A stretch of DNA of 64,000 nucleotides from Stegostoma tigrinum (Eukaryota): contig NC_081396.1 in NCBI RefSeq assembly GCF_030684315.1, positions 2,728,001 through 2,792,000 on the forward strand, given 5' to 3'. The notes under the pieces are model-generated. The model was given only the letters and a program-made list of their open reading frames with translations. It made no database searches and was not told where the DNA came from. Positions 12,948 to 64,000 of this stretch are shown one piece after another. Position 1 is the first letter of the stretch. The number at the start of each line of letters is the position of its first letter. The translations under genes were made by a program, and so were the position numbers.

Positions 12948-14378
12948 TTACTCATGAACTCGCTGGTGGGTCAGCAGGTTAGATGACCGAGTGAATCCCT
13001 TCCCACACTCTGAGCAGGCGAATGGCTTCTCCCCCGTGTGAACTCGCTGGTGTCTCCGCAGGTTGGATAAGTGAGTGAATTTCTTTTCACACGTGGAGCA
13101 CCGGAATGGCCTCTCTCCAGTGTGAATCTGCTGATGCATCATCAGATGGGATGATCGAGTGAAACCCTTCCCACACTCGGAACAGGTGAATGGCCTCTCT
13201 CCAGTGTGAATTCTCTGATGCATACTGAGTTGAGATGATTGTTTGAAGCCAGTCCCACAGTGAGAGCACCTGAATGGTCTCTCATCAGTGTGAACACGTT
13301 GATGGCGCATCAGCTCCCCGGAAATTTTAAAGCACTTCCCACAGTCTGGACATTTGAAAGGTCTTTCAGTGGTGTGAACTTGCTGGTGTGTCAGCAGAGT
13401 GGAGGACTGAGTAAATCCTTTCCCACACTCTGAGCAGGTGAATGGTCTTTCCTCAGTGTGAAATCGCTGGTGTTTCAGAAGATTGGCTGTCCGAGTGAAT
13501 CCCTTTCCACACTCTGAGCAGGTGAATGGCCTCTCCCCAGTGTGAATGCGTTGGTGGAGAATGAGGTCAGATGATCTCCTGAATCCAGCCCCACAGTGAG
13601 AGCACTTGAATGGCCTCTCATTGGTGTGAATACGTTGATGGAGTGTCAGCTCCTGGGAACTTTTGAAACCCTTCTCACAATCGGGGCATTTAAAAGGCCT
13701 CTCATCTGTATGAATTCGCTGGTGTCTCAGCAGAGTGGGTAAAACAATGAATCCCTTCCCACACACAGAGCAGGAGAAAGGTCTCTCCCCTGTATGAATG
13801 CGTTGATGTGCCTGAAGATGAAAAGACTGAGTGAATTTCTTCCCACAGTCAGAGCAGGTGAACGGCCTCTCCCCAGTGTGAGTGCGTTGATGCACAGTGA
13901 GGGCAGAAGAATGTCTGAACCTCTTTCCACAGGATGTGCAGCTGAACAGCTTCTCCTCAGTGTGAATTCGCTGGTGTATTTGGAGGGTGGACAACTGAGT
14001 GAAATCTTTCCCACACTCTGAGCAGGTGAATGGCTTCTCCCCAGTGTGTACTCGCTGGTGTGCCTGGAGGGTGGATAAATGAGTGAATCCCTTCCCACAC
14101 TCAGAGCAAGTGAATGGTTTTTCTCCGTTGTGGGTGCGTTGGTGCACAGTAAGAGCAGAAGAATGCCTGAATCTCTTTCCGCAGGAAGTGCAGCGGAACA
14201 GCTTTTCCTCAGTGTGAACTCGCTGGTGTGACCAAAGGCCAGATGACTGAGTAAATGCCTTCCCACACACAGAACAAATAAATGGCTTCTCTCCAGTGTG
14301 ATAACGTCGATGGTTTTCCAGCAGCGATGGGTAATCAAATCCTTTACCACATTCCTCACATTTCCATGGTTTTTCCAT
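12948..14378 (-). CDS. C2H2 zinc-finger protein with 17 tandem fingers and no KRAB domain visible; probable ATG at 14378 (MEKPWKC...)
   Basis: Uninterrupted ORF with 17 CxxC-x12-HxxxH units and TGEKP/TGERP linkers. The track start at 14501 is a GTG; the first ATG is at 14378 in GCCATGG context. Confidence 0.93.
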
Positions 14379-14999
14379 GGCACATGTGCCCTGTGTTTCT
14401 CTAGGTTGTGAACACAACACTTGAAGAGTTTCTCCTGTTTTGAATAGTGTAATGTTCGTTTTGAAGTTTTGTAACTGTTTAAAGCTCTTTCCACAGCTCA
14501 CACTCTTGGGTGAAATATTATAGCCAGGTCAGCACAGACAAACATTTCCCCTGGTGCATTCAAAGACCCATGATACTAAGAACTCTTAAAAAATAACCTT
14601 GGGAAAGACGTTCACAAAACTGTCCACCAAAAGCATAGGACAGCAATTTAAAACTAAGAATTCCAATTTGTATGGAAACTGTGCGGTTCATCAAAAGTGT
14701 AAGTCACCAATCCCACAAAACACCGTCATCCCTGAGCTGAAATCCAAAGCCTTGGGTCCATCCTTTCCATCACCCCGCGTATTCTCCACGTCTAATGTGG
14801 TTGAATTCATTTCTTTAGCCCACTCTTGGATTAGCAAGATAGCTAAACTTACGTCCTGCTCAACATATAGCCAGGATGGTGACCACGAATATGAGCCTAT
14901 TCCTCGGGAGAAGCTTCAGGTCTGTAAACGCGTGATCTGCAGCTTGTTTTTGGTCTTTGGGCTCTGCACCGGGGAAGGGGAGGATCAGTTCTCAGGGTT

Positions 15000-19775: not shown

Positions 19776-20190
19776 AACCTGGGGAACAGGCTGGAGAACC
19801 TGAGGCCTAGAAATGCAAACATTAGTGACAAACCCAAGCGCCTAAGGCCTAGAAATACCAACCTTAGCAATAGGTTCCAGAGGGCGAGGCCTAGAAGCAT
19901 GAACCTCAGCAATAGGCCTGGGAGCCTGACACTGAGGAATGTCAACCTTAGCAAGAGACTGGTAACCCCAAGGCCTAGGGAGGAAAACATCAGCAACTAG
20001 CCTGGGAGCCTAAAGCCTAGGGAGGCCAACCTTTGCAACAGGCCCAGGAGATGAGATTGAGGAATGGGAACCTTAGCAACAAGCCATTAGAGTCTGCGCA
20101 TAGCAATGGCAATTTCTCCAAGCTGAAAAGCCTGTGGGCTAATAATGCCAAATTTCAACAACAGGCCAGAAAGCCTGAAGCCTGCAGGTT
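19776..20190 (+). repeat. Degenerate 42-bp (14-codon) tandem repeat, about 10 units
   Basis: Unit starts at 19776, 19818, 19860, 19902, 19944, 19986, 20028, 20069, 20111 and 20151; peptide consensus N-L-S-N-R-P-x-x-L-R-P-R-N-x. Confidence 0.85.
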
Positions 20191-23175: not shown

Positions 23176-24290
23176 TCATTGTTGAGATGTGCGATCTCTC
23201 TGCTGTCTCAGCAGGGTGGATGAGTGAGCTAACTTTTTTACACATGGCGCAGGTGAATGGTTTCTCTCCAGTGTGAACTCACTGGTGTCCTCAGAGTTGG
23301 GAGATTCGCCTGAAAACAGTCCCACAATGAAAGCACCTGAAAGGTCTGTCATCATGTGAACACATTGATGGGACGTCAGTTCACAGAAATTCAATAACAC
23401 TTCTCACAGATTAGGAGTTTGAAAGGTCTCTTCTCAGTGTAAACACACTGATGATAAAACAGTCCTGTCTGAGCATTTAAAAGGTTTCTCCTCAGTGTGA
23501 ACACATTGATAAGTCAGTCCCCAGGAGCTCATAATTGCAGTTCCCCCCAAAAAAAATCTGTCCCAATGTGAACAGGCTGGTGTCTCAGCAGGTTGGATGA
23601 CCGAGTAATTCCCCTCCCATACCTGGAGCAGAACAGTCTCTCCCCAGTGTGTACCTGTCACACAGAAAGAGCACATGAATGGTCTCTCCTCGGAGTGAAC
23701 ATGGTGGGATATCAGGTCCCAGGAGCTTTGTAGCATTTCCCAAAATCTGGGAATTTAAAAGGTCTCTCATTAATGTGAACAAGTTGATGGGACATCAGGT
23801 CCCTGAAGATTTTAAAGCACTTTACACAGTTTGAGCATTTAAAAGGTCTCTTCTCCATGTGAGCAAATTGGTGGGACTCCAGGTCCTTGGGCGTTTTATA
23901 GCATTTTTGACAGTGTGGATATTAAAAAGATCTGGCTGAATGTGAACACATTGATGGTACAACAGCATTCTGGGATTTTTACAGCACTTCCAGCAGTCCA
24001 GCCATTGAAATAATCTCTCCTCAGCATGACCGAGTTGCTGCTGCAGCAAGTTAGAAGACTGAGTGAACTCCTTCCCACATACTGAGCAGGTGGATGGCCG
24101 GCTGCTGGTGCGTCTGCAATGTGTTTCCAGCTCAGATGGGAAAACAAATTCCTCCCCACAATCCACACGTTTCCGCAGTTTCTGCCCAGTGTCACTGCAT
24201 TTGTGGAGTCTAATGATTGGCTGAAGCCTACTCCTCACACACGTACGGTTTCTCTCCACTGTGAACGAGGTTTTTCCCATCCATATTCAA
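23176..24290 (-). pseudogene. Frameshifted C2H2 zinc-finger pseudogene
   Basis: Finger and linker remnants spread over several frames ([41 protein letters not shown]) with lost Cys/His ligands. Confidence 0.88.
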
Positions 24291-25304: not shown

Positions 25305-25928
25305 TCACTTATGAATTTGCTTATGCTTCTGCAGATGTGATGACTGAGTGAATTGTTTCCCACACTCAGAACAGATAAATGGCTTCTCCCCAGTATGCAC
25401 TCGCTGGTGTACATGTAGGGCAGATGACTGTCTGAATCGTTTCCCACAGTTGGAGCACTTGAATGGTCTCTCCCCAGTGTGAATTTGCTCATGCTTCCTC
25501 AGGTGTGATGACTGAGTGAATTCCTTTCCACAATCAGAGCAGCTAAATGGTCTCTCCCCAGTGTGAACTCGCTGGTGTGCACGCAAACCCGACAACTGAG
25601 TGAATACCTTCCCACACTCTGAGCAGGCGGATGGGGTCTCCCCAGTGTGAGCTCGCTGGTGTCTCAACAAGGTGAAATATTCCCTGAATTTCTTCCCACA
25701 CTCGGAACAGGCAAACGGTCTCTCTCCAGTGGCAGCACGCTGATGTTTCCGAAGGGCAGACGAATCAGGGAATTCCTTCCTACATTCAGAGCAGGTCAAT
25801 GACCCCTCCCTGCTGTGACCACGTCGATGAAATTCTTGTGCTGAAAGCGAATGAAGTCCCTTCCCACAGTCGTCACACTTCCACGGTTTCTCCCTGTTAT
25901 TGGTGTCGCTGTGACTCTGAGTGTTCAA
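25305..25928 (-). CDS. C2H2 zinc-finger ORF with 7 fingers (first two degenerate) and no in-frame ATG; spliced gene or young pseudogene
   Basis: Five canonical fingers with TGERP/TGEKP-type linkers. The track start is TTG, and the ORF reads REKPWKC (AGG) where the paralogue has MEKPWKC (ATG). Confidence 0.7.
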
Positions 25929-26720
25929 TAATGAGCGGAAGCTTCACCCGCATGGAGCATGGGTATGGTCTCTCCCTGCTGTGAATGGTATGATGCTTTT
26001 TAGGCTGCGTCACCAATTAAAGTTTTTTTCCAGAGTCGCTTCACTGGAAGACTCTTACTTGGAGTAAGAGGGTGTGTCACAGTGCTTTTCCAGTCAAATT
26101 GATGTTAAAACCTTCGATGCAGACAGAACAAATGGACATTTCTCCATCAATAGTTATTTAATTCTGGTTATTTTAATCACTATCTGCACATGAAGTTTGT
26201 TTAGTGATTTCTGCACAAATTAAAAATTCAGAACAGAGGGTTCTAGTTTTCTCTGGGATAGCTTTTTCCTCTCTCTCCTCTCACATTCTCGCACAATGCT
26301 CACTCTGCTGTCTCTAATATACACCCTCCCCGTTCTCCTGAAGGTACTGATAAACAGATCCAAAGTCATTACTTCCTGTCCTGTACAGACTCTGCTGCTG
26401 CATAAGTTCACTTGCTTCCCTTCAGTTTTTACGTCAATAATTTCACGACAGAATGGGGATAAAAAATGGAAACAGAAAGGTAGATAAAAGGAAGGATTTT
26501 GTTCATAGATGTTGGACAGAAAAGGAGGGTTCAGTCTGGCAGAATCTTTCCAGTCCTTGATTGTTTTTCATATGTCAATTTCTAGCATTATGACAATTAG
26601 GGGATTGGAACCTGGACTTGTGTGGGCATGGTGACACTTTGACACCCCACAAGTTGAACAGTATAAAAAGTGAGTGCCTTTGTTTGCCAAAAAATCACAA
26701 CGTTAATATGTTCCACCCCA

Positions 26721-28278: not shown

Positions 28279-29191
28279 AGTGATAACCGGAACTGCAGAT
28301 GCTGGAAAATCCAAGATAATCAAATGTGAGGCTGGATGAACACAGCAGGCCCAGCAGCATCTCAGGAGCACAAAAGCTGACAAAAGCACTGCCCTCCAAC
28401 CCCACCACACCCGGCACCTTCCCCTGCAACCGCAGGAAATGCTACACTTTCCCCCACACCTCCTCCCTCACCCCTATCCCAGGCCCCAACATGACTTTCC
28501 ATATTAAGCAGAGGTTCACCTGCACATTTGCCAATGTCGTATACTGCATCCATTGTACCCAGTGTGGCTTCCTCTACATTGGGGAAACCAAGCGGAGGCT
28601 TGGGGGCTGCTTTGCAGAACACCTCCACTCGGTTCGCAATAAACAACTGCACCTCCCAGTCGCAAACCATTTCCACTCCCCCTCCCATTCTTTAGATGAC
28701 ATGTCCATCATGGGCCTCCTGCAGTGCCACAATGATGCCACCCGAAGGTTGCAGGAACAGCAACTCATATTCCGCTTGGGAACCCTGCAGCCCAATGGTA
28801 TCAATGTGGACTTCACCAGCTTCAGAATCTCCCCTTCCCCCACCGCATCCCAAAACCAGCCCAGTTCATCCCTTTCCCCCCACTGCACCACACAACCAGC
28901 CCAGCCCTTCCCCTCCACCCACTGCATCCCAAAACCAGTCCAACCTGTCTCTGCCTCCCTAACCTGTTCTTCCTCTCACCCATCCCTTCCTCCCACGCCA
29001 AGCCGCACCTCCATCTCCGACCTACTAACCTCATCCCACCTCCTTGACCTGTCCATCTTCCCTGGACTGACTATCCCCTCCCTGCCTCCCCACCTATACT
29101 CTCCTCTCCACCTATCTTCTTTTCTCTCCATCTTCGGTCCGCCTCCCCGTCTCTCCCTATTTATTCCAGAACCCTCTCCCCATCCCCCTCT

Positions 29192-29219
29192 CTGATGAAG
29201 GGTCTAGGCCCGAAACGTC
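29192..29219 (+). ncRNA. Minimal hammerhead ribozyme motif (PLE family A)
   Basis: CTGATGA-A-GGGTCTAGGCCC-GAAA-CGTC; palindromic ACGT helix III; helix I weak. Confidence 0.7.
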
Positions 29220-29311
29220 AGCTTTTGTGCTCCTGAGCCTGCTGTGTTCATCCAGCCTCACATTTTATTATCTTGGATTCTCCAGCATCTGCAGTTCCCA
29301 TTATCACTGAT

Positions 29312-31028
29312 AAAACAACCCCGCACGGCCCGTTTCTATCTCCTTCCCAAAATCCACAAACCTGCCTGCCCTGGTCAACCCATTGTCTCAGCCTGTTCCT
29401 GCCCCACCGAACTCATCTCCACCTATCTGGACTCCATTTTCTCCCCTTTGGTCCAGGAATTCCCGACCTACGTCCATGACAACACCCACGCCCTCCACCT
29501 CCTCCAGGATTTCCAATTCCTTGGCCCGCAACACCTCATTTTCGCCATGGACGTCCAGTCCCTATACACCTGTATTCCACATGCACATGGCCTCAAGGCC
29601 CTCCGCTTCTTCCTGTCCCGCAGGCCCGACCATTCCCCCTCCACCGACACCCTCATCCGCCTAGCCGAACTCGTCCTCACCCTCAACAACTTCTCCTTCG
29701 ATTCCTCCCACTTCCTACAGACTAAGGGGGTGGCCATGGGCACCCGCATGGGCCCCAGCTATGCCTGCCTCTTTGTAGGTTACGTGGAACAGTCCCTCTT
29801 CTGCACCTACACAGGCCCCAAACCCCACCTCTTCCTCCATTACATTGATGACTGTATCGGTGGCACCTCTTGCTCCCCAGAGGAGCTCGAACAGTTCATC
29901 CGCTTCATCAACACCTTCCACCCTAACCTTCAGTTCACCTGGGCCATCTCCAGCACATCCCTCACCTTCCTGGACCTCTCAGTCTCCATCTCAGGCAACC
30001 AGCTTGTAACTGATGTCCATTTCAAGCCCACCGACTCCCACAGCTACCTAGAATACATCTCCTCCCACCCACCCTCCTGCAAAAATTCCATCTCCTATTC
30101 CCAATTCCTCCGGCTCCACCGCATCTGCTCCCACGATGAGGCATTCCACTCCCGCAAATCCCAGATGTCCAAGTTCTTCAAGGACAGCAACTTTCCCCCC
30201 ACAGTGGTCGAGAACGCCCTTGACTGCGTCTCCTGCATTCCCCGCAACACATCCCTTACACCCCGCCACAACCGCCCAAAGAGGATCCCCCTCGTTCTCA
30301 CACACCACCCCACCAACCTACGGATACAACGCATCATCCTCCGACACTTCCGCCATCTACAATCCGACCCTACTACCCAAGACATTTTTCCATCCCCACC
30401 CCTGTCTGCTTTCTGGAGAGACCACTCTCTCCATGACTCCCTTGTTCGCTCCACACTACCCTCCAACCCCACCACACCTGGCACCTTCCCCTGCAACCGC
30501 AGGAAATGCTACACTTGCCCCCACACATCCTCCCTCACCCCTATCCCAGGCCCCAACATGACTTTCCATATTAAGCAGAGGTTCACCTGCACATCTGCCA
30601 ATGTCCAATACTGCATCGATTGTACCCGGTGTGGCTTCCTCTACATTGGGGAAACCAAGCAGAGGCTTGGGGACCGCTTTGCAGAACACCTCCACTCGGT
30701 TCGCAATAAACAACTGCACCTCCCAGTCGCAAACCATTTCCACTCCCCCTCCCATTCTTTAGATGACATGTCCATCATGGGCCTCCTGCAGTGCCACAAT
30801 GATGCCACCCGAAAGTTGCAGGAACAGCAACTCATATCCCGCTTGGGAACCCTGCAGCCCAATGGTATCAATTTGGACTTCACCAGCTTCAAAATCTCCC
30901 CTTCCCCCACCGCATCCCAAAACCAGCCCAGTTCGTCCCCTCCCCCCACAGCACCACACAACCAGCCCAGCTCTTCCCCTCCACCCACTGCATCCCAAAA
31001 CCAGTCCAACCTGTCTCTGCTTCCCTAA
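29312..31028 (+). CDS. Penelope RT plus GIY-YIG endonuclease, 5'-truncated but open
   Basis: FYLLPKIHK, MDVQSLYT, GVAMGTRMGPSYACLF, YIDD, FLDL, then YCIDCTRCGFLYIGETKQRL..RFAEH. Confidence 0.9.
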
Positions 31029-31258
31029 CCTGTTCTTCCTCTCACCCATCCCTTCCTCCCACCCCAGGCCGCACCTCCATCTCCTACCTACTAACCTCAT
31101 CCCACCTCCTTGACCTGTCCGTCTTCCCTGGACTGACCTATCCCCTCCCTACCTCCCCACCGATACTCTCCTCTCCACCTATCTTGTTTTTTCTCCATCT
31201 TCGGTCCGCTTCCCCCTCTCTCCCTATTTATTCCAGAACCCTCACCCCATCCCCCTCT

Positions 31259-31286
31259 CTGATGAAGGGTCTAGGCCCGAAACGTC
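31259..31286 (+). ncRNA. Minimal hammerhead ribozyme motif (PLE family A)
   Basis: Identical to 29192-29219. Confidence 0.7.
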
Positions 31287-31599
31287 AGCTTTTGTGCTCC
31301 TGAGATGCTGCTTGGCCTGCTGTGTTCATCCAGCCTCACATTTTATTATCTTGGATTCTCCAGCATCTGCAGTTCCCATTATCACTGAATCAAGTGACAC
31401 TGTCAGATCTTGATGTGCTGTTTGTTTTGAGTTTCCGAAATGCAAATCCTCTTCAAATATCTTGTAAAATAAGTTTACAAAAGTGATCACTGTCAGCCCA
31501 GATCAAAACAGAAACACAGGCAATAAACTTTTCTCTCTTTTTTTTAACTGTGCGTAAATGTTCCCCTGCAAAAGGTGTTTATGAACTCCATCCCCGCCA

Positions 31600-46740: not shown

Positions 46741-46750
46741 AACCTTTATA

Positions 46751-46842
46751 GTGAGTTTTGAGAAGATTTGTAGCTCAGGTTGAGGTTCTGAATGTGAGGT
46801 TGCTCACTGAGCTGGAAGGTTAGTTTTCAGACGTTTCGTCAC
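46751..46842 (-). mobile_element. Penelope family B pLTR, 3' part beginning at hammerhead stem II (left arm of host element)
   Basis: Minus strand gtgacgaaacgtctgaaaac...ttctcaaaactcac matches 63543-63634. Confidence 0.92.
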
Positions 46843-49800
46843 TTTTTTTTATTTGAAAAAATATACTTTAAAACATATTTACACACCTACCCAGTCATGC
46901 AAGTCGCTCCGGGTTACCCAGGGGGTACATACACCAACTAAAGGAAAAAAAACAAAGAAGGAAAAAAAAACAAAGCAGAGAAAACACCCGGCAGTCGTCA
47001 CACCGCACAGTCCCAGTTGGCCCCCTGACCAGTTGGGGAAGGCGCCAGCTGGGCCCAGTTACCAGATAGGGCCCTTTTTTCTATTCTGGACGAGGGGTTT
47101 CATACGGTGGTCTTTCCCCACCGCGCCTTGGCGGCGGCTGCCCCAAGCTTTAGCGCGTCCCTCAGCACGTAGTCCTGAACCTTGGAGTGCGCCAGTCTGC
47201 AACACTCGGTCGGGGTCAATTCATTCAGCTGGCAGACCAGCAAGTTGCGGGCAGACCAAAGAGCATCTTTCACTGCATTGATGGTCCTCCAGGCGCAGTT
47301 GATGTTGGTCTCGGTGTGCGTCCCCGGAAACAGCCCGTAGAGCACGGAGTGCCGCATCACGGAGCTGCTCGGGTCGAACCTCGACAAATACCGCTGCATC
47401 CCCCTCCACACCTCCTGCGCATAGGCACACTCCAGAAGGAGGTGATCAACAGTCTCGTCCCCTCCGCAGCCACCTCGAGGGCAGCATGCGGTGGCACAGA
47501 GATTCCAGGCATGCATAAAGGATCTCACTGGCAGAGCCCCTCTCACCGCCAGCCAAGCAATGTCCTTGTGCTTGTTTGAAAGTTCTGGCGATGAGGCATT
47601 CTGCCAAACGACTTTGGCAGTCTGCGTGGGGAACCACACGACGGGATCCACCCTCTCCTTTTCCCGAAGGGTCCTAAGGATACTACGTGCTGACCACTGC
47701 CTGACGGCCTTGTGGTCAAAGGTGTTTCCCTTCAAAAATTTCTCCACGAAGGACAGGTGGTACGGGACGGTCCAACTACTCGGAGCGTTCCGCGGCAATG
47801 AGACCAGGCCCATCCTTCGCAACACCGGGGACAGGTAGAACCTCAGTAAGTAGTGACACTTGGTGTTTGCGTACTGAGGATCTACGCACAGCTTGATGCA
47901 GCCACACACAAAGGTAGCCGTCAGGGCGAGGGTGGCATTCGGTACGCCCTTTCCCCCATTTTCCAGGTCTTTGTACATGGTGTCCCTGTGGACCCGGTCC
48001 ATCCTCGACCCCCAAATGAAGTGGAAGATGTCCTGGGAGACTGCAGCAGCGCAGGCCCAGGGAATAGGCCAGTCCTGCGCCAGATACAACAGTACCGAAA
48101 GCCCCTCACACCTGACAACCAGGTTCTTACCCGCGATGGAGAGGGACCGGAGCGTCCACCTGCCCAGCTTCTGCTTCAATTTGGTGATACGCTCCTCCCA
48201 AGTCTTAGTGCACGCCCCAGCTCCACCAAACCAAATACCCAGCACCTTCATGTAGTCTGTCCTGACGGTGAAGGGGATGAAGGAGCGGTCGTCCCAGTTC
48301 CCGAAGAACATGACTTCGCTCTTACCCCGATTGACTTTGGCACCCGAGGCCAGTTCACACTGGCCGCAGATGTCCAATAGTCTACTCACCGACCGACGAT
48401 CGGTGCAGAAGACGGCGACATCATCCATGTACAGGGAGGTCTTGACCTGAAGGCCTCCGCTGCCTGGGATAGTCACACCCTTCAGGCTCACGTCCTTCCT
48501 GATGGATGCAGCGAAGGGCTCCACACAGCACACGAACAAGGCAGGAGAGAGCGGGCAGCCCTGCCTGACTCCAGATCTGACAGGAAAACTGTCCGATTCC
48601 CACCCGTTGATCGAGACTGCTCTAACGATGTTGGCGTAGAGCAGCCGGATCCAATTGCGGATGCCCTCCCCGAACCCCAATTTGGAGAGGACGTCCCTCA
48701 TGTAAGCATGAGAGATCCTGTCGAAGGCCTTCTCCTGGTCCAGGCTGATGAGCCAGGTGTCCACCCGCCTGTCCTGTACGTAGGCGATTGTATTCCTGAT
48801 GAGCGCGAGGCTCTCAGCGATCTTCCTGCCCGGCACAGCACAGGTTTGGCCAGGGAGAATCACTAACTCCAGGACAGACCTGACCCGGTTGGCTATGGCC
48901 TTGGCCAGGATTTTGTTCAAAAGTGAAATGGGACGCCAATTCTTAATTTCTTCCCTCTCCCCCTTCCTCTTGTAAATGAGGGTGATGATGCCCTTCTTCA
49001 TGGACTTGCACATTTCCCCTGCCCGAAGTGCACTATCGTACACCTCCAGCAGGTCCTGGCCGACCAGGCCCCACAGAGCGGAATACAGCTCGACTGGTAA
49101 GCCGTCACTTCCGGGAGTCCTATTCCTCTCCAAGGGCTTGAGGGCTCTGGTCAGCTCGTCCAGGTATATCGGCTGGTCCAGCCACTCCCTCGTGCCGTCG
49201 TCGAAGACCTCCATGATAGACAACAGGAATGACTCAGAGGCCGTGCTGTCTGTGGGCTTCGTGTCGGACAGTCCGGCATAGAAGGATCTGCTGATCCACA
49301 AAATGTCGGGCTGAGACGACGTCACCGAGCCATTGTCCTCCTTCAGCCGGCTAAGCACAGTGCTCTCTTTGTGCACCTTCTGAAAGAAGAAACGTGAGCA
49401 CGTCTCATCCTGCTCCACGGAGCGGACCCTGGACCGGAAGATTATCTGGGAGGCCTCCGCAGCGAAGAGCGAGGCTTGCTGGCCCCTCACCTCCCGGAGG
49501 TCCTCCATGATATCGACCCCCATCAACAGCAGAAGGAGCAGGTTCTGCACCCTTTTATGGAGTCGCGACAGCTTTCCCCGCCTCTCTCTCGCCTTCTGAA
49601 CACCCTTGAGGACAAAGAACCTCTTGATGTTCTCCTTCACCATCTCCCACCAGTCGCCCGGAGACTCAAAGAGCGGTTTCACGGTTCTCCAAACGGCGTA
49701 CTCCCTCTTAAGCTCCTTGACGTTCTCTGGGGTTGACAGAGTCGTGTTGAGCTTCTACGTCCCCTTGCTGGCCGGCTGGTCGTCCTGTAAGTGACAGTCG

Positions 49801-51202
49801 GCCAGCAGGAGGCAGTGGTCAGAGAAGATCACCAGCTTGACGCCGGTGGACCTGACCGAGAACGTCCGTGACACAAACAGGAAGTCTATCCTTGAGCGGA
49901 TAGACCCGTCTGGCCGCGACCAGGTGTACCTCCGCTGCACTCCGTCTGCAGGGGTGCTGAAGATGTTGAGCAGCTTGGCGTCCTTCACCGTGCCCATCAG
50001 GAATCTGGACGTGACGTCCAGTTGACTCCCCCCACCTGCTGTCCCCACGCTGGATCTTCCATCTGCATCAATGATGCAGTTGAAGTCTCCGCCTAGGATG
50101 ACCGGCCTGGGCGTAGCCAGCAGGGGTGGAAGCCGCTGCAGGATGGCCAACCGCTGTCCCGTACCTGCTGAGGTGCGGTATCCCGCACTCCTGCAGAAAC
50201 AGGAGGTCCGCCTTGATGGTGGTCAGGTAGGCCAACGTGGACACACATCTTGTGGTGGACCTGACACTGCGCACATTAATGCTCGCAACTCGTACCCCCA
50301 TTGTGGGCAGTGACCTCAGTACCCTCCCCAAGTCCAAGGTCCGGCCACTCCATCTGTCCCTTCATGCCCATTGCCCAGGCTAACTGCTGGACGCTCTCCG
50401 GGCTCAGGAAACAGTCCGTGCTGCCTTCCGGGTGGCATCCCCCCGTCAGGGGTGCGGAGGCAGAGGGTCCGGCTCTGGGTCAGGCTGGGGACACGCAGTT
50501 TCCTCCTTCCTGCCTGGAAGTTCCGGGGGATCCTCCAGTGCCCCAGCAGCACTTGACTGGGTGTCAGAGGGAGCCTCAGGACGCCTCCTGTCACCTGGAA
50601 GCGGGGTGCTGTTTTCCTTCTCCCTCAAGATCTTTAACTTCTGCTTCGGGTGGGCCCTCTCCGAATTCCCCTCGTCAGGGGAGCTCTTATAGCCCCCCTG
50701 TAGCTGCCTCTTCCCGCCTGATGGTTGCGGTTCCTGGGCCCGTCGACGCACCTTCCTCCTCGCTTTCCGGACTGTGGTCCACTCCCCTGGGTCGCCTGTC
50801 GTCGCCTTCATCGACTCCGGGTTGTCGGGGGGGGAGTGGAGCCTGGAGGGGCGCTTTGCTGGCCTCGGGCCCATCCTTCTGGGCTGGGCCCTCCTGCACG
50901 GCCTGGCTCTTCTGCACATTAGTGGGGTCCTTGCAGGGCCCTGGTGCCTTCCTCTCCTCCGGGGGGGGGGGGGGGGGGGGTCGCTGGCCTGCATTGCCCC
51001 TGCCGGCAACCTGGGCGTAGGTGGTCCCCCGCCGCGGGCATGCCCTCTAGAGGTGGCCCGCTTCCCCACGAAGGTTGCAGCTTTTTTCTTGTGGGCAATC
51101 CTTTGCAAGGTGTCCCTCCTCCCTGCAGTTCCTACAGATGGTGGCTTTGCAGTCGGCCGCCACGTGACCTGACCTACCACAGGCATGGCAGACTTTAGGT
51201 TG
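46843..51202 (-). mobile_element. Tx1-clade (L1 group) non-LTR retrotransposon, copy 1; 5'-truncated within ORF1, 3' end intact with A tail
   Basis: ORF2 50301->47100 (APE broken by a deletion and a stop; RT SGVRQGCPLSP/YMDD; C-terminal CxxxxC...HLLLEC); CCHC knuckles at 51030-51190; T8 at 46843-46850. Confidence 0.93.
47100..50301 (-). pseudogene. Tx1 ORF2 (APE-RT-zf), copy 1; RT part open for 860 codons
   Basis: Track ORFs 50068-50337, 49755-50150 and 47100-49682. Confidence 0.9.
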
Positions 51203-51327
51203 GTGATGTTCATCACCAACGCAGGAAATGACATCACCAACCCAAGGAAACCTAACCAGATAAATAGAAAGCGGGACATAACACCAGCGCTTCGTCAGAG
51301 GCTCACTGTTGATGTTACCTAGAATGG
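51199..51327 (+). mobile_element. Penelope family B inversion centre and right-arm pLTR up to hammerhead stem II
   Basis: Palindrome gttggtgatg-tt-catcaccaac at 51199-51220; the sequence from about 51225 to 51327 matches 63441-63543 with 8 mismatches in about 103 nt. Confidence 0.92.
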
Positions 51328-51539
51328 GACTGATTATCTGGCAACAAACCTTCCAGCTCAGTGAGCCAGCTTACTTCAGGAACAAAATAAAGACCCACTC
51401 TCTTGTGGCCCGAGAGGAGGACAGTGCTGTGTTGGAGGTGAAAGGAGGACGTCGGGTTGGCTGTGCACCCTTGCAACCAGTGGATCTTAATGCTGGCTTC
51501 GGCCTAACGCTGGTTCAGAGGAGCAGCCAACCTGCAACG

Positions 51540-53007
51540 ATGGCTGCAGCAAGTGCTCGTGCCCCAGGTCAAGGGATCCGGAACACCATCCGTGTTTCCG
51601 TAAAGAAGGTGGATGAGGGTGCACCTGTGGACCGCACCTTCTTTGTGAAGAGGATCCTGTTGGACTGTTGTGGGTTCTCTGCTGCAGACATTTACTGCCT
51701 GCAGGATTTCCCCCGAGGGGGTTTTTACGACGTGACCTTCAGGAGTGCCAAGCTTTGCGAGCGCTTCCTGGAGGTTTTCGAGGAGAAAGGAGGTGAGGGC
51801 CCCCTCTCTGTATTGACCGCTGTCCCGCTGTTTGTGATGCCAGCGCAGAGGAGCCGTATGGTGACTGTAAACATGTACAACCCGCATGTGCCAGCATTTG
51901 ATGTCCTGACCTTCCTTGGAAGGTACGTGAAGGTGGAAGGGGACCTAACTGACTTCATGGACCCCTTTGGCATCTGGACCAGTAAGAGGCAAGTCAGGGT
52001 GACGCTGAGGATGGGCGCGGACAGGAACATTGTACACCCACTGTCCAGCTTCGCGATCGGCGGGAGTAAGGGCTACCTGACCTACGCAGGGCAACCTAAA
52101 GTCTGCCATGCCTGTGGTAGGTCAGGTCACGTGGCTGCTGACTGCAAAGCCACCATCTGCAGGAACTGCAGGGAGGAGGGACACCTTGCAAAGGATTGCC
52201 CACAAGAAAAAAGCTGCAACCTTCGTGGGGAAGCAGGCCACCTCTATAGGGCATGCCTGCGGCGGGGGACCACCTACACTCAGGTCGCCAGCAGGGACAA
52301 TGCGGGGCTAGCCTGCCCAGAGGAGAGGAAGGCACCAGGGCCCAGCAAGGACCCCACTAATGTGCAGGAGGGCCACGTTGTGCGGGAGGGCCCAGCCCCG
52401 CAGGATGGGCCCGAGGCCAGCAAAGCGCCCCTGCAGGCTCCGCTCCCCCCTCCCCGACAAGCCGGAGTTGATGGAGGTGGCGACAGGTGACCCAGGGGAG
52501 TGGATGACAGTCTGGAAAGCGAGGAGGAAGGCGAGTCGGCGGGCCCAGGAACCACAACCATCAGGCGGGAAGAGGCAGCTACAGGGGGGCTATAAGAGCT
52601 CCTCTGACGAGGGAGATTTGGAGGGGGCCCACCCGAAGCAGAAGCTAAAGATCTCAAGGGAGAAGGAAGGCAGCACCCTGCTTCCAGGTGACGGGAGGCA
52701 TCCTGAGGCTCCATCCAACACCCAGCCATGTGCCACTGGGGCCCTGGAGGGCCACCCGGACCTTCCAGGCACGAAGGAGGAAACTGCGCGCCCCCAGCCT
52801 GACCCAGAGCCGGACTCTCCTGCCTCCGTACCCCCGATGGGGGGATGCGACCCGGAAGGCAGCACGGACGGTTTCCTGAGCCCAGAGAGCATCCAGCAGT
52901 TAGCCCGGGCAATGGGCATGAAGGGACAGATGGAGGGGCTGGACCTTGGACTTGGGGAGGGTACTGCGGTCACTGCCCACAATGGGGGTACGAGTTGCGA
53001 GCATTAA
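51540..53007 (+). pseudogene. Tx1 ORF1 (ZCCHC3-like N-terminal region plus three CCHC knuckles), frameshifted near 52450
   Basis: DIYCLQDFP..GFYDVTF, Y.GQPKVCHACGRSGHVAADC, CRNCREEGHLAKDC, CNLRGEAGHLYRAC. Confidence 0.88.
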
Positions 53008-56000
53008 TGTGCGCAGTGACAGGTCCACCGCGAGATGTGTATCCACGTTGGCCTACCTGACCACCATCAAGGCGGACCTCCTGTTTCTGCAGGAGTGCGG
53101 GATACCGCACCTCAGCAGGTACGGGAAATGGTCCGGCGCCTGGACCTGTGGGCCTTCAATCTGGTCGGGGCTAATGACTGTCGCTCCTCGGGCCTGGCTA
53201 TTCTGCTGCGGGGGCGCAACTTCACCATCTCTCAAGTTCAGGAGGTGGTGGGGGGGGGATGCCTCCTAGTGGCTGACGTCACTTACAGGAACGCTCCCCT
53301 GAGGCTGATCAACGTGTACGCCCCAGCGGTACGGAGTGAGCGGTTGGCCGTTCTGCAGCAGCTTCCACCCCTGCTGGCTACGTCCAGGCCGGTCATCCTA
53401 GGCGGAGACTTCAACTGCATCATTCAGATGGAAGATCCAGCGTGGGGACAGCAGGTGGGGGGAGTCAACTGGACGTCACGTCCAGATTCCTGATGGGCAC
53501 GGTGAAGGATGCCAAGCTGCTCAACATGTTCAGCACCCCTGCAGACGGAGTGCAGCGGAGGTACCCCTGGTCGCGGCCAGACGGGTCTATCCGCTCAAGG
53601 ATAGACTTCCTGTTTGTGTCACGGGCGTTCTCGGTCAGGTCCACCGGCGTCGTGCCGGTGTTCTTCTCTGACCACTGCCTCCTGCTGGCCGACTGTCACT
53701 TATAGGACGACCAGCTGGCCGGCAAGTGGACGTGGAAGCTCAACACGACTCTGTTGACCCCAAAGAATGTCGAGGAGCTTAAGAGGGAGTACGCCGGTTG
53801 GAGAACCGTGAAACCCCTCTTTGACTCTCCGGGCGACTGGTGGGAGACGGTGAAGGAGAACATCAAGAGGTTCTTTGTCCTCAAGGGTGTTCAGAAGGCG
53901 AGAGAGAGGCGGGGAAAGCTGTCGCGACTCCATAAAAGGGTGCAGAACCTGCTCCTTCTGCAGTTGATGGGGGTCGATGTCATGGAGGACCTCCGCGAGG
54001 TGAGGGGCCAGCAAGCCTTGCTTTTTGCCGCAGAGGCCTCTAGGATGATCTTCCGGTCCAGGGTCCGCTCCGTGGAGCAGGACGAGACGTGCTCGCATTT
54101 CTTCTTTCAGAAGGTGCACAAAGAGAGCTCTGTGCTTAGCCGGCTGAAGGAGGACAACGGCTCGGTGACGTCGTCTCAGCCCGACATTTTGAGGATCAGC
54201 AGATCCTTCTATGCCGAACTGTATGACACAAAGCCCAGGGACAGCACGGCCTCCGAGTCATTCCTGTCATCTATCACGGAGGTCTTAGATGACGGCATGA
54301 GGGAGTGGCTAGACCGGCCAATATCCTTGGATGAGCTGACCAGAGCCCTCAAGTCCTTGAAGAGGAATAAGACTCCCGGGAGTGACGGTCGAGCTGTATT
54401 CCGCTCTGCTGGAGGCATACGATAGTGCGCTTCCGGCAGGGGAAATGTGCAAGTCCATGAGGAAGGGCATCATCACCCTCATTTACAAGAGGAAGGGGGA
54501 GAGGGAAAAAATTAAGAGTTGGTGTCCCATTTCACTTTTGAAAGTGGACTACAAAATCCTGGCGAAGGTCATAGCCAACCCGGTCAGGTCTGTCCTGGAG
54601 TCGGTGATTCACCCTGACCAAACCTGTGCTGCGCCAGGCAGGAAGGTCGCTGAGAGCCTCGCGCTCATCAGGGATACGATCGCCTACGTACAGGACAGGC
54701 GGGTGGACACCTGCCTCGTCAGCCTGGACCAGGAGAAGGCCTTCGACAGGATTTCTCATGCTTACATGAGGGACGTCCTCTCCAAATTGGGGTTCGGGGA
54801 GGGCATCCGCAATTGGATCTGGCTGCTCTACGCCAACATCGTTAGCGCAGTCTCGATCAACGGGTGGGAATCGGACAGTTTTCCTGTTAGATCTGGAGTC
54901 AGGCAGGGCTGCCCGCTCTCTCCTGCCTTGTTCGTGTGCTGTGTGGAGACCTTCGCCGCATCCATCAGGAAGGACATGAGCCTGAAGGGCGTGATTATCC
55001 CAGGCAGCGGAGGCCTTCAGGTCAAGACCTCCCTGTACATGGACGACATTTCCATCTTCTGCTCCGATTGTCGGTCGGTGAGTAGGCTGTTGGACATCTG
55101 CGGCCAGTTTGAACTGGCCTCGGGTGCCAAAGTCAATAGGGGTAAGAGCGAAGTCATGTTCTTCGGGAACTGGGACGACCGCTCCTTCATCCCCTTCACC
55201 GTCAGGACAGGCTACATGAAGGTGCTGGGTGTTTGGTTCGGTGGAGCTGGGGCATGCACTAAGACTTGGGAGGAACGTATCACCAAACTGAAGCAGAAGC
55301 TGGGCAGGTGGATGCTCCGGTCTCTCTCCATCGCGGGTAAGAACCTGGTTGTCAGGTGCAAGGGGCTTTCGGTACTGTTGTGTGTGGCGCAGGCCTGGCC
55401 TATTCCCTGGGCCTGCGCTGCTGCAGTCTCCCGGGCCATCTTCCACTTCATTTGGGGGTCGAGGATGGACCGGGTCCACAGGGACACCATGTACAAAGAC
55501 CTGGAAAATGGTGGAAAGGGTGTACCGAACGCCACCCTCGCCCTGACGGCTACCTTTGTGTGTGGCTGCATCAAGCTGTGCGTAGATCCTCAGTACGCAA
55601 ACACCAAGTGTCACTACTTACTGAGGTTCTACCTGTCCCCGGTGTTGCGAAGGATGGGCCTGGTCTCATTGCCGCGGAACGCTCCGAGTAGTTGGACCAT
55701 CCTGTACCACCTGTCCTTCGTGGAGAAATTTTTGAAGGGAAACACCTTTGACCACAAGGCCGTCAGACAGTGGTCAGCACATAATATCCTCGAGACCCTT
55801 CGGGAAAAGGAGAGGGTGGATCCCGTTGTGTGGTTCCCCACGCAGACTGCCAAAGTCGTTTGGCAGAATGCCATGTCGCCAGAACTTTCAAACAATCACA
55901 AGGACATTGCTTGGCTGGTGGTGATAGGGGCTCTGCCAGTGAGATCCTTTATGCATGCCCGGAATCTCTGCGCCACCGCATGCTGCCCTCGAGGTGGCTG

Positions 56001-56168
56001 CGGAGGGGACGAGACTGTCGATCGCCTCCTTCTGGAGTGTGCCTATGCGCAGGAGGTCTGGAGGGGAATGCAGTGGTATTTGTCGAGGTTCGTCCAGAGC
56101 AGCTCAGTGACGCGGGATTCCGTGTTCTATGGGCTGTTTCCCGGGATGCGCACCGAGACCAACATCAG
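52982..56168 (+). pseudogene. Tx1 ORF2 (APE-RT), copy 2, multiple frameshifts
   Basis: VASINVR, FLQECG, LGGDFNC, SRIDF, SDHC, DQEKAFDR and YMDD motifs. Confidence 0.9.
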
Positions 56169-56849
56169 CTTTTGTTAAATAAAATCAATACATTTCCAAC
56201 AGGCTGCAGGGCGCCTCGAACTGGTGTTAATGCAGTAACTCCCCATAGAAACCCCAATTTTTTGCTTGCTCTTGCATCAATAGCATTTGTGGCTATTCCA
56301 GAATTAATCGTTTCCCAGATACGTTTGACGATGCAATGTTGAAGCTGTTGTATTTTGTACCCAACGAGTGGTCAGTCGGGTGCACATCTGCTAAATCCAA
56401 CCTTTGCAACAGATAGTGGTTGCTTTTCAGTCAGTTTTCAAATTACATCTCAGCTTGTCCTGTACCTCTGTTAAAAATCCTCTTCCAGTGGATATATCAT
56501 GCAAACTTAATCACCATCCAACTCAACGGTTATTAGTTGTCATGCCAGAAAAGACGAAAGCAATTTGCCAAAAAGGGTGTCACTAGACTCGAAATGTTAA
56601 CTTTGCCTTCTCTCTACAGGGGCTGCGAGACCTGTTGAGTTTCTTCAGCAATTTTTGTTTTTATTTCAAGTTTCTGTCATTCAAAGTGTGTTGTTTGATT
56701 TTTTTTAAGTGTTCTGCTGTCAGGTGAAACAACTTAAGTTATTTGAAGGGACAATTATTTTAATGTATTAAGAAAATTAAATGATATTTAATATCAGGGA
56801 ATGATTGAAGGTGAGTGACCTGCCTCGAACCGTCATTTCAGAAAAACTG

Positions 56850-63080: not shown

Positions 63081-63138
63081 CTTTGCTATCTCCATTTTGG
63101 ATGTGAGTTTGCTCGCTGAGCTGGAAGGTTCGTTTTCA

Positions 63139-63172
63139 GACGTTTCGTCACCATTCTAGGTAACATCGTCAG
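63139..63172 (-). ncRNA. Minimal type I hammerhead ribozyme (PLE family B)
   Basis: CTGACGA-T-GTTACC-TAGAAT-GGTGAC-GAAA-CGTC; helix I tca/tga. Confidence 0.8.
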
Positions 63173-63521
63173 TGAGCCTCCGATGAAGCGCTGGTGTTAT
63201 GTCCCGCTTTCTATGTTGATGAACATCAACGAGCCACAAAACGACATGACCCACTATCACTCGTATCCTTACATACAGATAAGGAAGGACACCACTTTGA
63301 TTGGGACAACACATTCTTCCGAAGACAAGCCAAACAGAGACATGCACGAGAATTCCTAGAAGCATGGCATTCCAACTGGAATTCCATCAACAAACACATT
63401 GACTTGGAGCCAATCTACCATCCCCTGAGAAAAAGAACAGGATATGACATTACCCACGCAAGGAAACCTAACCAGATAAATAGAAATCGGGACATAACAC
63501 CAGCGCTTCGTCGGAGGCTCA

Positions 63522-63555
63522 CTGATGATGTTATCTAGAATGGTGACGAAACGTC
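63522..63555 (+). ncRNA. Minimal type I hammerhead ribozyme (PLE family B)
   Basis: CTGATGA-T-GTTATC-TAGAAT-GGTGAC-GAAA-CGTC; helix I tca/tga extended by ggagg/cttcc. Confidence 0.8.
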
Positions 63556-64000
63556 TGAAAACGAACCTTCCAGCTCAGCGAGCAAACTCACATCCAGAAC
63601 CTCAACCTGAGCTACAAATCTTCTCAAAACTCGCTATCTCCATTTTGATTAAACTGATCTATAATTTATATGTGTTCATGACTTCCTTGCTGTATTTTGC
63701 AATTTTGGCCCTTCACACCATCCTGTTGATCTTTCTGTGTCGCTCATAGCTTCTGTCACAAACGTTGCATTATGACCATTGTAATCTTAAAGATCATATC
63801 TATAAACTACAAATAAACTTGATTTAGAAGAACTAATTACATTTGTTATCAAATTCGTCAGATAATTTGTACAATGTGTTTCTTTAAGGTCGAGATATTT
63901 TACATCCAACTCTTCTTCTAACTGTGAGTTCAAGCGAAGAAATCGAGAGAACCAAAATTGCAACCCTCGTCTGTTCAATCACAGAATTCCATCCTAAGCA

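What the first reader, a model, noticed from the sequence alone, without database searches (positions are those of the whole stretch)
51328..51383. The Tx1 5' end carries a catalytically dead mimic of the target's downstream sequence
Seen: after the junction, gactgattatctggcaacaaaccttccagctcagtgagccagcttacttcaggaac aligns ungapped to the pLTR continuation gacgaaacgtctgaaaacgaaccttccagctcagcgagcaaactcacatccagaac with 15 mismatches in 56 nt. The flank upstream of the junction has only about 4 mismatches in 85 nt. The GAAACG core is replaced by TGATTA. Inference: this is an older target-derived segment fixed as the element's own 5' UTR. It could restore pLTR promoter or downstream elements so the Tx1 is transcribed from the host pLTR while escaping self-cleavage, or it could assist 5' joining. 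Either would imply long co-evolution with this target.
Basis: partly seen in the sequence, partly recalled or inferred. Interest (0 to 1): 0.8.

Follow-up and report, generated by a model that had tools for sequence, protein, structure and literature searches.

The report
Jumping gene carrying disabled target copy
A jumping gene that inserts into the self-cutting RNA motif of another mobile element carries an old, altered copy of its own landing site at its front end and often overwrites the site with a ribozyme-breaking letter, which suggests it is transcribed from its host element and joins its front end by sequence matching.

Summary
All 72 other full-length 5' ends examined are closer to the family majority than to the target. 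The element is a ~5.3-kb Tx1-type LINE inserting at one base inside the minimal hammerhead of a Penelope-like element (79 of 82 3' ends). Two corrections. (1) TGATT is a minority lineage (131 exact copies versus 1,149 GAAAC-type); most copies carry other core changes, and about 12% have an intact core. (2) Element-derived sequence starts upstream of 51328: a core change 18 nt upstream of the insertion point (window 51309) is in 558/1,149 Tx1 junctions but 70/8,958 free pLTRs, and is unlinked to the Tx1 body. Best reading: a host-pLTR co-transcript whose cDNA joins the target by homology, as modelled for R2; earwig R2 carries a similar diverged downstream duplication. Selection against self-cleavage is plausible but unproven (about 45%). 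No RNA evidence was obtained.

The parts
51327..51383 (+). Inherited ~58-nt 5' segment of the Tx1 element: a diverged copy of the pLTR sequence downstream of the insertion point (+1 to +58). This copy lacks one T after 51327 and belongs to the TGATT lineage.
51331..51336 (+). TGATTA in place of GAAACG (hammerhead G12 to G16.2); a lineage marker
   Evidence: 131 exact matches genome-wide; clustered on the tree
51306..51312 (+). Hammerhead core 5' half read as CTGTTGA. The T at 51309 (position -18, A6 to U) is Tx1-linked although it lies upstream of the insertion point.
   Evidence: 558/1,149 vs 70/8,958; 5 of 7 vs 0 of 33 in an independent sample
51314..51330 (+). Hammerhead stem II and loop; holds the PLE ORF stop (TAG), the probable PLE start codon (ATG 51324-51326, inferred by analogy) and the insertion point
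   Evidence: PMC11167929 for the analogy
51362..51364 (+). TGA fixed in the family (C to T at +37). It ends a 13-codon frame opened by the PLE ATG in typical copies and completes a predicted helix with -26..-19 that sequesters the core CUG.
   Evidence: T in 67 of 67 5' ends vs 14 of 71 3' flanks; folding
51211..51326 (+). Upstream pLTR (3' end of the PLE ORF). Target-derived at -65 and beyond, mosaic near the junction.
51384..56178 (+). Tx1 body of this copy: rest of the 5' UTR, ORF1 from ATG 51540 (two ZCCHC3-type RNA-binding domains, CCHC knuckles), ORF2 (APE endonuclease, RT, zf-RVT). Frames are broken and the last ~450 nt are missing.
46843..51202 (-). Second, inverted Tx1 copy, lacking its first ~760 nt, with an 8-nt A tract; shares rare variants with the + copy
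46749..46842 (-). Target-type pLTR tail at the 3' junction of the second copy (unaltered hammerhead 3' half)
51199..51220 (.). Palindromic remnant of the centre of an inverted PLE pair
63438..63635 (+). Free pLTR used as reference; minimal hammerhead CTGATGA 63522-63528, GAAAC 63548-63552, GTC 63553-63555; one arm of an inverted PLE pair with a 15-bp duplication (63085-63099 and 63633-63647)

Best explanation
A site-specific Tx1-type LINE inserts at one base in stem II of the minimal hammerhead of a Penelope-like element (shown). Its 5' end holds an old, separately evolving copy of the 58 nt downstream of that site (shown). Its RNA template also includes at least 18 nt of pLTR upstream of the site (inferred from the -18 marker). 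The RNA is most likely a co-transcript from the host pLTR promoter (inferred). After reverse transcription the cDNA end anneals to the target across the junction and the join falls at a variable place. Positions -18 to +11 therefore end up as a mosaic of donor and target letters, while +16 to +58 stay element-type and keep diverging (mosaic shown, annealing inferred). Donor RNAs mostly carry hammerhead-core changes: A6U, G12A, G16.2A, or GAAAC to TGATT. These are probably kept because self-cleavage would cut off the cap and the upstream homology arm; that last step is a hypothesis at about 45%.
For: Target: 79 of 82 3' ends abut the same GTGAC (73 pLTR, 6 another copy's 5' segment). Inheritance. 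Upstream marker: 558/1,149 vs 70/8,958, odds ratio 120. An independent sample picked by PLE RT sequence gave T in 5 of 7 Tx1-bearing and 0 of 33 free pLTRs (Fisher p 3e-5). Gradient in 67 5' ends vs 71 3' flanks: -18 T 30/67; +6 A 28/67 vs 7/71; +11 A 53/67 vs 12/71; +16 G 65/67 vs 3/71; +37 T 67/67 vs 14/71; a CpG control (+5 T) is level at 11/67 vs 11/71. Linkage in 68 full-length copies: -125, -65, -35, -18, +6 and +11 are unlinked to the body (p 0.26-0.97), while segment markers at +26 and beyond are linked (p 0.002-0.037). The -18 marker is random on the tree (31 changes vs 31.6 shuffled) and occurs in all four 5' subtypes. 29 of 36 stretches picked by their 3' end hold full-length copies. 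Precedent: the R2 heteroduplex model and the earwig R2 downstream duplication (PMC3774820).
Against: There is no transcript evidence and the RNA 5' end is not mapped. No tandem-duplicated junction carrying the marker was found (0 of 3 hits). Two of the three common core changes are CpG transitions, and each could have arisen once in long-lived donors. Minimal hammerheads cleave weakly and need a partner copy (PMC4209133); in the anole PLE no RNA-seq reads ended at the cut site (PMC11167929). About 12% of junctions have an intact core. The -18 marker is rarer in one subfamily (7 of 22 vs 40 of 70 scored, p 0.05), which fits neutral erosion. The body tree is star-like, with 3 of 108 branches strongly supported. 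The 3'-flank base at +21 is linked to the body (p 0.002), which plain priming at the nick does not explain.
Confidence: 0.7

Rival explanations
1. Same joining mechanism, but the dead core is a neutral relic: the changes arose once in a few long-lived donor copies and hitch-hiked. The 58-nt segment persists only because it lies inside the template.
For: Two changes are at CpG sites. The tree is star-like. The -18 marker is less frequent in one subfamily. Minimal hammerheads have low activity (PMC4209133).
Against: All four Tx1-linked changes between -30 and +13 hit core positions, while the tolerated C-to-T partners at the same CpGs stay at or below background (+5: 11/67 vs 11/71; +10: 3/67 vs 10/71). 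The -18 change is a transversion in a zone where about half of the junctions show the target letter, yet it persists in all four subtypes. This rival is compatible with the joining part of the best explanation.
Confidence: 0.4
2. The unit PLE + Tx1 + tail is copied as one passenger RNA by the PLE's own reverse transcriptase, so both flanks and the -18 marker are simply inherited.
For: Head-to-head pairs share rare variants: the window's two copies share 9 in 3,324 nt against at most 0.97 per kb with others, and two further pairs do too. Inverted partners of Tx1-bearing arms were Tx1-bearing in 10 of 25 loci, against 0 of 20 for free arms. The A tract is uniform (7-9 nt in 42 of 47). The 3' junction G/GG and the +21 base are linked to the body.
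Against: Upstream PLE variants at -125, -65 and -35 are unlinked to the Tx1 body, and -65 keeps a weak link to +21 across the insertion (p 0.03). 15 of 25 inverted partners are empty. Tandem units are independent copies with 0 shared rare variants. One 5'-truncated copy sits in place with a ~16-nt duplication (L138). Long PLE copies carry Tx1 in only 7 of 40 cases. Five of the eight inverted or tandem pairs tested shared no rare variants, some over short overlaps.
Confidence: 0.12
3. Tx1 prefers a rare PLE subfamily that already had CTGTTGA, or the marker spread or was lost later by gene conversion; the element itself starts at +1.
For: 70 free pLTRs carry the T; 13 of 15 examined are not followed by Tx1.
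Against: It would need about 89% occupancy of T sites against about 6% of A sites. T and A junctions have the same mix of upstream PLE variants (-65: 26/24 vs 19/20). Free T copies are explained by excision between the direct repeats or by point mutation; Tx1/PLE hybrid solos exist.
Confidence: 0.06
4. The 56-mer is a locally mutated pLTR and the true insertion point is near 51383.
For: This copy has 9 differences from the family majority, some private.
Against: 3' junctions are at +1, not +58 (79 of 82). The same substitutions recur in nearly all 67 5' ends and are rare or absent in 3' flanks.
Confidence: 0.01

Closest known systems
R2 elements co-transcribed with 28S rRNA, especially earwig R2 (Eickbush et al. 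2013, PMC3774820; passages read)
   Same: Target sequence upstream of the site is thought to stay on the RNA and let the cDNA anneal to the target. All earwig 5' junctions carry a 22-bp duplication of downstream target sequence with 3 substitutions, explained as propagated through the template.
   Different: R2 has a restriction-like endonuclease, one ORF and an active HDV-like ribozyme of its own that sets the RNA 5' end. Here the element is a two-ORF APE-type Tx1, the duplication is 58 nt and about 21% diverged, the ribozyme belongs to the target, and it is mostly broken rather than used.
Target-specific Tx1-clade LINEs: Tx1L in Tx1D, Tx1-Mar in Mariner-N4_AMi, Tx1-9_AMi in Harbinger, Keno in U2 (PMC4494074; passages and one section read)
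   Same: Domain layout, insertion at a fixed site in another repeat or transposon, tandem insertions; transcription from the flanking target was suggested for SINEU.
   Different: The passages I read list no PLE or hammerhead target and describe no inherited diverged target copy or overwritten upstream flank. The original Tx1L and Keno papers were not available to me.
Penelope/Poseidon PLE with minimal hammerhead (PMC4209133, first half read; PMC11167929, first part and passages read)
   Same: The target has an RT plus GIY-YIG ORF, a pLTR with CTGATGA, an extra base before a 6-bp stem II and GAAACGTC, variable tails and inverted pairs.
   Different: Here it is the host, not the mover. The ORF reads through the pLTR and stops in loop II. 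Catalytic activity was not tested.

Membership tests
Tx1 clade non-LTR retrotransposon | Two ORFs: ORF1 with RNA-binding domains and CCHC knuckles; ORF2 with APE endonuclease, RT and C-terminal zinc finger | tested here: met
   Pfam RBD_ZCCHC3_1st/2nd and zf-CCHC; Exo_endo_phos, RVT_1 and zf-RVT in a natural near-intact copy, L061
Tx1 clade non-LTR retrotransposon | RT phylogeny groups with Tx1 references | tested here: inconclusive
   No tree with named references was built. Of the 120 listed relatives one is named 'transposon TX1 uncharacterized 149 kDa protein' (43% identity); the best named ones are amphibian proteins at 53-54%. The EN region matches human L1 ORF2p only weakly (E 5e-5).
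Target-specific Tx1 | More than 20% of flanks in one repeat (criterion of PMC4494074) | tested here: met
   79 of 82 3' ends at the same base
Penelope-like element (target) | RT and GIY-YIG endonuclease in one ORF with pLTR and tails | tested here: met
   RT motifs and continuous frames in L235 and L238; GIY-YIG weak in Pfam (E 0.0066, below cut-off); Atlas neighbours 0.95 with HTH_animal and GIY-YIG; no full-length copy seen
Penelope/Poseidon subclade | RT phylogeny and no Cys-rich linker (recalled criterion) | not tested
   Assigned by resemblance only
Minimal hammerhead ribozyme (free pLTR) | Core CUGANGA...GAAAC-GUH with stems I and II and a palindromic stem III | tested here: met
   Motif at 63522-63555; stem II pairing probability 0.88-0.99, stem I weak at 0.1-0.3. 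Rfam has no hammerhead hit.
Minimal hammerhead ribozyme (free pLTR) | Self-cleavage | not testable with these tools
   Needs an in vitro assay, probably as a dimer
R2-type co-transcript with homology-primed 5' joining (works-like test) | Template contains target sequence upstream of the nick | tested here: met
   Indirect: -18 marker 558/1,149 vs 70/8,958, unlinked to farther upstream variants
R2-type co-transcript with homology-primed 5' joining (works-like test) | RNA 5' end set by an element-encoded active ribozyme | tested here: not met
   Core intact in only 7 of 67 junctions; this is not an R2
R2-type co-transcript with homology-primed 5' joining (works-like test) | Transcription from the host promoter | not testable with these tools
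   No raw RNA reads were offered

The most novel reading that the evidence does not exclude
This Tx1 has turned its host's hammerhead into a silenced leader on two levels. Core-breaking changes are re-imposed on each new target by cDNA annealing. Fixed substitutions downstream (+16, +17, +37) refold the RNA so that even junctions whose core was restored from the target cannot form the ribozyme. With target-derived arms at both RNA ends, it would integrate by homology-armed reverse transcription, close to RNA-templated homing, and sometimes fill both arms of an inverted PLE from one donor.
Probability: 0.3. Interest if true: 0.82.

Novelty: new variant of a known kind. Interest (0 to 1): 0.62.

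Why it matters
How LINEs attach their 5' ends in vivo is poorly known, above all for APE-type elements. Here more than a thousand natural junctions carry markers on both sides of the nick, which gives a readable gradient of donor versus target sequence and a direct way to test heteroduplex joining. A LINE that gives mostly full-length 5.3-kb insertions at one base of an abundant, dispensable repeat is also of interest for RNA-templated gene insertion. If the dead core is selected, it would be indirect evidence that minimal PLE hammerheads cleave in vivo, which is an open question.

Tried and rejected
RNA evidence: no RNA holder listed; the four contig runs laid gave no start or end positions. 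This is no evidence either way. A search for tandem-duplicated junctions to map the RNA start found 3 hits, none with the marker. Rfam gave no hammerhead match on the free pLTR. No full-length PLE was found, so the PLE start codon rests on analogy. My first reading that TGATT is private to this copy was rejected. The idea that the core is a target-site duplication next to an element starting at the ribozyme cut site was rejected. Avoidance of self-targeting as the selective force is not supported: 6 of 79 insertions are into Tx1 5' segments, near their 11-18% share of sites. Folding: the alternative helix is robust (median 0.92-0.98 in 9 core-intact junctions vs 0 in 24 free pLTRs), but the loss of stem II is not (p 0.02-0.13 by window size). 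In a random-substitution control on one copy, 3% of draws lowered stem II as much but 56% lowered stem I as much. Literature searches found no paper on a Tx1 targeting a PLE hammerhead; the library lacks most subscription papers, Repbase and the Tx1L paper.

Full report
Setting. The window is G000:C55:2728001-2792000 of a 3.2-Gb genome; it looks shark-like to me, which I did not test. Positions are given relative to the insertion point: +1 is the G of GTGAC (window 51327 in this copy, 63543 in the free pLTR). Some scripts label +6 as +7.

Observation. It is exact: 15 mismatches in 56 nt against 63545-63600, and 4 in the 85 nt upstream. This copy also lacks one T after 51327. The 51309 mismatch changes CTGATGA to CTGTTGA.

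The element. It is a ~5.3-kb two-ORF LINE. ORF1 has two ZCCHC3-type RNA-binding domains and CCHC knuckles. ORF2 has APE endonuclease, RT and zf-RVT domains. One of 120 listed relatives is named as a TX1 protein (43%); no reference tree was built. The first look gave 1,946 candidates for the 5' body and 1,689 for the 3' end, of which 40 each were scored. All 39 loci picked by the 5' body have a 3' end about 5.2 kb on. 29 of 36 stretches picked by the 3' end are full-length; the other 7 are truncated or rearranged.

The target. It is the pLTR of a Penelope-like element. RT motifs and a GIY-YIG-like C-terminus read through the pLTR and stop at TAG in loop II of a minimal hammerhead. The motif fits the minimal hammerheads of PMC4209133 (parts 1-2 of 4 read). 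These need a partner copy and cleave weakly. In the anole Poseidon element the ORF starts in stem II and the promoter is thought to lie in the pLTR (PMC11167929, part 1 and passages read); PMC2377424 (abstract only) reports an internal TATA-less promoter for Penelope. By analogy the ATG just before +1 is the PLE start codon; no full-length copy was found to confirm it. 79 of 82 3' ends abut GTGAC: 73 in a pLTR and 6 in another copy's 5' segment. The 3 others come from one tandem locus.

The 5' segment is inherited. 30 of 30 first loci have it. 72 of 72 other 5' ends are closer to the family majority (median 3 mismatches) than to the target (median 13); majority and target differ at 12 of 56. 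In 67 non-tandem 5' ends (6 tandem junctions left out) against 71 3' flanks, the element letters at +16, +17, +21, +37, +40, +42, +44 and +47 are present in 63-67 of 67. Full-length copies are only about 2.2% from their majority outside CpG sites, so the capture is much older than this burst (inference). The segment ends at +58, where many PLE tails end (3'-flank conservation falls to 47 of 71 at +58). It may therefore stem from a short-tailed PLE copy or an aberrantly long duplication (inference).

What is 'dead'. TGATT is a lineage: 131 exact matches, clustered on the body tree (10 changes vs 17.8 shuffled). The GAAAC-type pattern has 1,149 matches. Most of these carry A at +11 (53/67 vs 12/71 in 3' flanks) and often A at +6 (28/67 vs 7/71). 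The neighbouring C-to-T changes at the same CpGs are at or below background. The full core is intact in 7 of 67 and 135 of 1,149. Some of the 1,149 are not Tx1 5' ends: 4 of 30 inspected central matches were free, solo or truncated. No activity was measured.

The key new result. The change at -18, upstream of the insertion point, is in 558 of 1,149 Tx1-type and 70 of 8,958 free-type sites (odds ratio 120). In a sample picked only by PLE RT sequence 1.5 kb away it is in 5 of 7 Tx1-bearing and 0 of 33 free pLTRs. One of 41 stretches had no motif, five free ones look like duplicates, and I classed the rows by eye from the printed sequences because the script's labels merged classes. The marker occurs in all four 5' subtypes, is random on the tree (31 vs 31.6) and is independent of the -65 variant. 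In 68 full-length copies and 105 body sites, variants at -125, -65, -35, -18, +6 and +11 are unlinked to the body, while those at +26 and beyond are linked. In the first 100 rows, counted by hand, T at -18 goes with A at +6 (30/46 vs 17/54, p 0.001), as expected if joins fall at variable places. The +6 A is not copied from the same site's 3' flank. The simplest reading is that donors carry at least 18 nt of upstream pLTR and that this arm replaces the target's letters in about half of the insertions.

Mechanism. Shown: fixed site, inherited segment, mosaic zone from -18 to +11, core changes in most junctions. Inferred: co-transcription from the pLTR, cDNA annealing to the top strand, and a top-strand cut near +15 (from a single truncated copy with a ~16-nt duplication, L138, among 205 sites). 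Hypothesis: the dead core protects the cap and the homology arm. Two further possible roles of the fixed changes are untested. The +37 T ends a 13-codon upstream frame opened by the PLE ATG (TGA in 65 of 67). It also completes a predicted helix with -26..-19 that sequesters the core CUG: median pairing 0.92-0.98 in 9 core-intact junctions vs 0 in 24 free pLTRs, though the effect on stem II depends on the window and the random control is mixed. The segment does not stop re-targeting (6 of 79).

Results against, or not explained. The 3' junction (G vs GG) and the 3'-flank base at +21 are linked to the body (p 0.01 and 0.002), and the A tract is 7-9 nt in 42 of 47. This suggests read-through RNA at the 3' end as well (R1Bm is a recalled precedent) or some PLE-driven copying. 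Head-to-head pairs, including the two window copies, share rare variants and are over-represented (10 of 25 loci, two pairs counted twice, vs 0 of 20). PLE-driven copying as the main route is unlikely, because upstream PLE variants are unlinked to the body, most inverted partners are empty and tandem units are independent. The -18 marker is rarer in one subfamily (7 of 22 vs 40 of 70; p 0.05), which fits neutral erosion. RNA data were not available.

Comparison. It works like R2 elements that keep upstream 28S sequence on their RNA. PMC3774820 (passages read) proposes a cDNA-target heteroduplex and reports that all earwig R2 copies carry a 22-bp downstream duplication with 3 substitutions. PMC6895275 (passages read) gives a template-jump model. 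It is not an R2. Tx1 families targeting other transposons are known (PMC4494074, passages and section 15 read; PMC4640811, passages read). My searches found no paper on a PLE or hammerhead target or on this 5' architecture in Tx1; Repbase and the original Tx1L and Keno papers could not be checked, and no supplements were read. Earlier scan notes report Tx1 families targeting PLE tails in other genomes; a search for the 5' architecture returned no note holding all the words.

Verdict. A real, family-wide feature and a new variant of a known strategy. Interest 0.62.

Noticed in passing
window 46843-56178; also L224/L225, L159: Head-to-head Tx1 copies in the two arms of an inverted PLE share rare variants yet differ as much as random copies, so both arms seem to have been filled from one donor at about the same time; the cause is unexplained.
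   Followed up: partly
3' junctions in L031-L069 and L175-L209: The A tract is nearly constant (7-9 nt), and the G/GG junction and the flank base at +21 are linked to the Tx1 body, hinting at read-through RNA that carries downstream target sequence.
   Followed up: partly
L137, partner arm in L014, 3' flanks in L213, L066, L202: Solo pLTRs with a Tx1-type first half and a PLE tail: the 5' segment and the 3' target behave as imperfect direct repeats that allow excision.
   Followed up: partly
L037, L061: Tandem Tx1 units with independent bodies share private variants in their 5' segments (up to +24), suggesting the new copy took on the old copy's 5' end.
   Followed up: partly
window 51324-51539; L061, L044, L178: The ORF1 frame is open for about 70 codons upstream of its ATG, through the 5' segment. 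In the window copy the missing base puts the probable PLE ATG in frame with ORF1.
   Followed up: no
L088/L210 (G000:C2:45468648-45469600): Off-target tandem array of ~610-nt Tx1 3' fragments without pLTR flanks.
   Followed up: no
window 28320-31390: A second, different PLE in partial tandem with another minimal hammerhead (CTGATGA at 29192 and 31259); short copies recur at 1219, 7359, 16847 and 32131. It is not targeted by this Tx1 in the loci seen.
   Followed up: no
window 63085-63647: Inverted free PLE pair flanked by a 15-bp direct duplication.
   Followed up: partly
window 12948-14528, 23200-24100, 25305-25943: Minus-strand arrays of 84-nt repeats typical of C2H2 zinc-finger genes; the middle array looks decayed.
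   Followed up: no
window 19776-20041: 42-nt tandem repeat of unknown origin.
   Followed up: no
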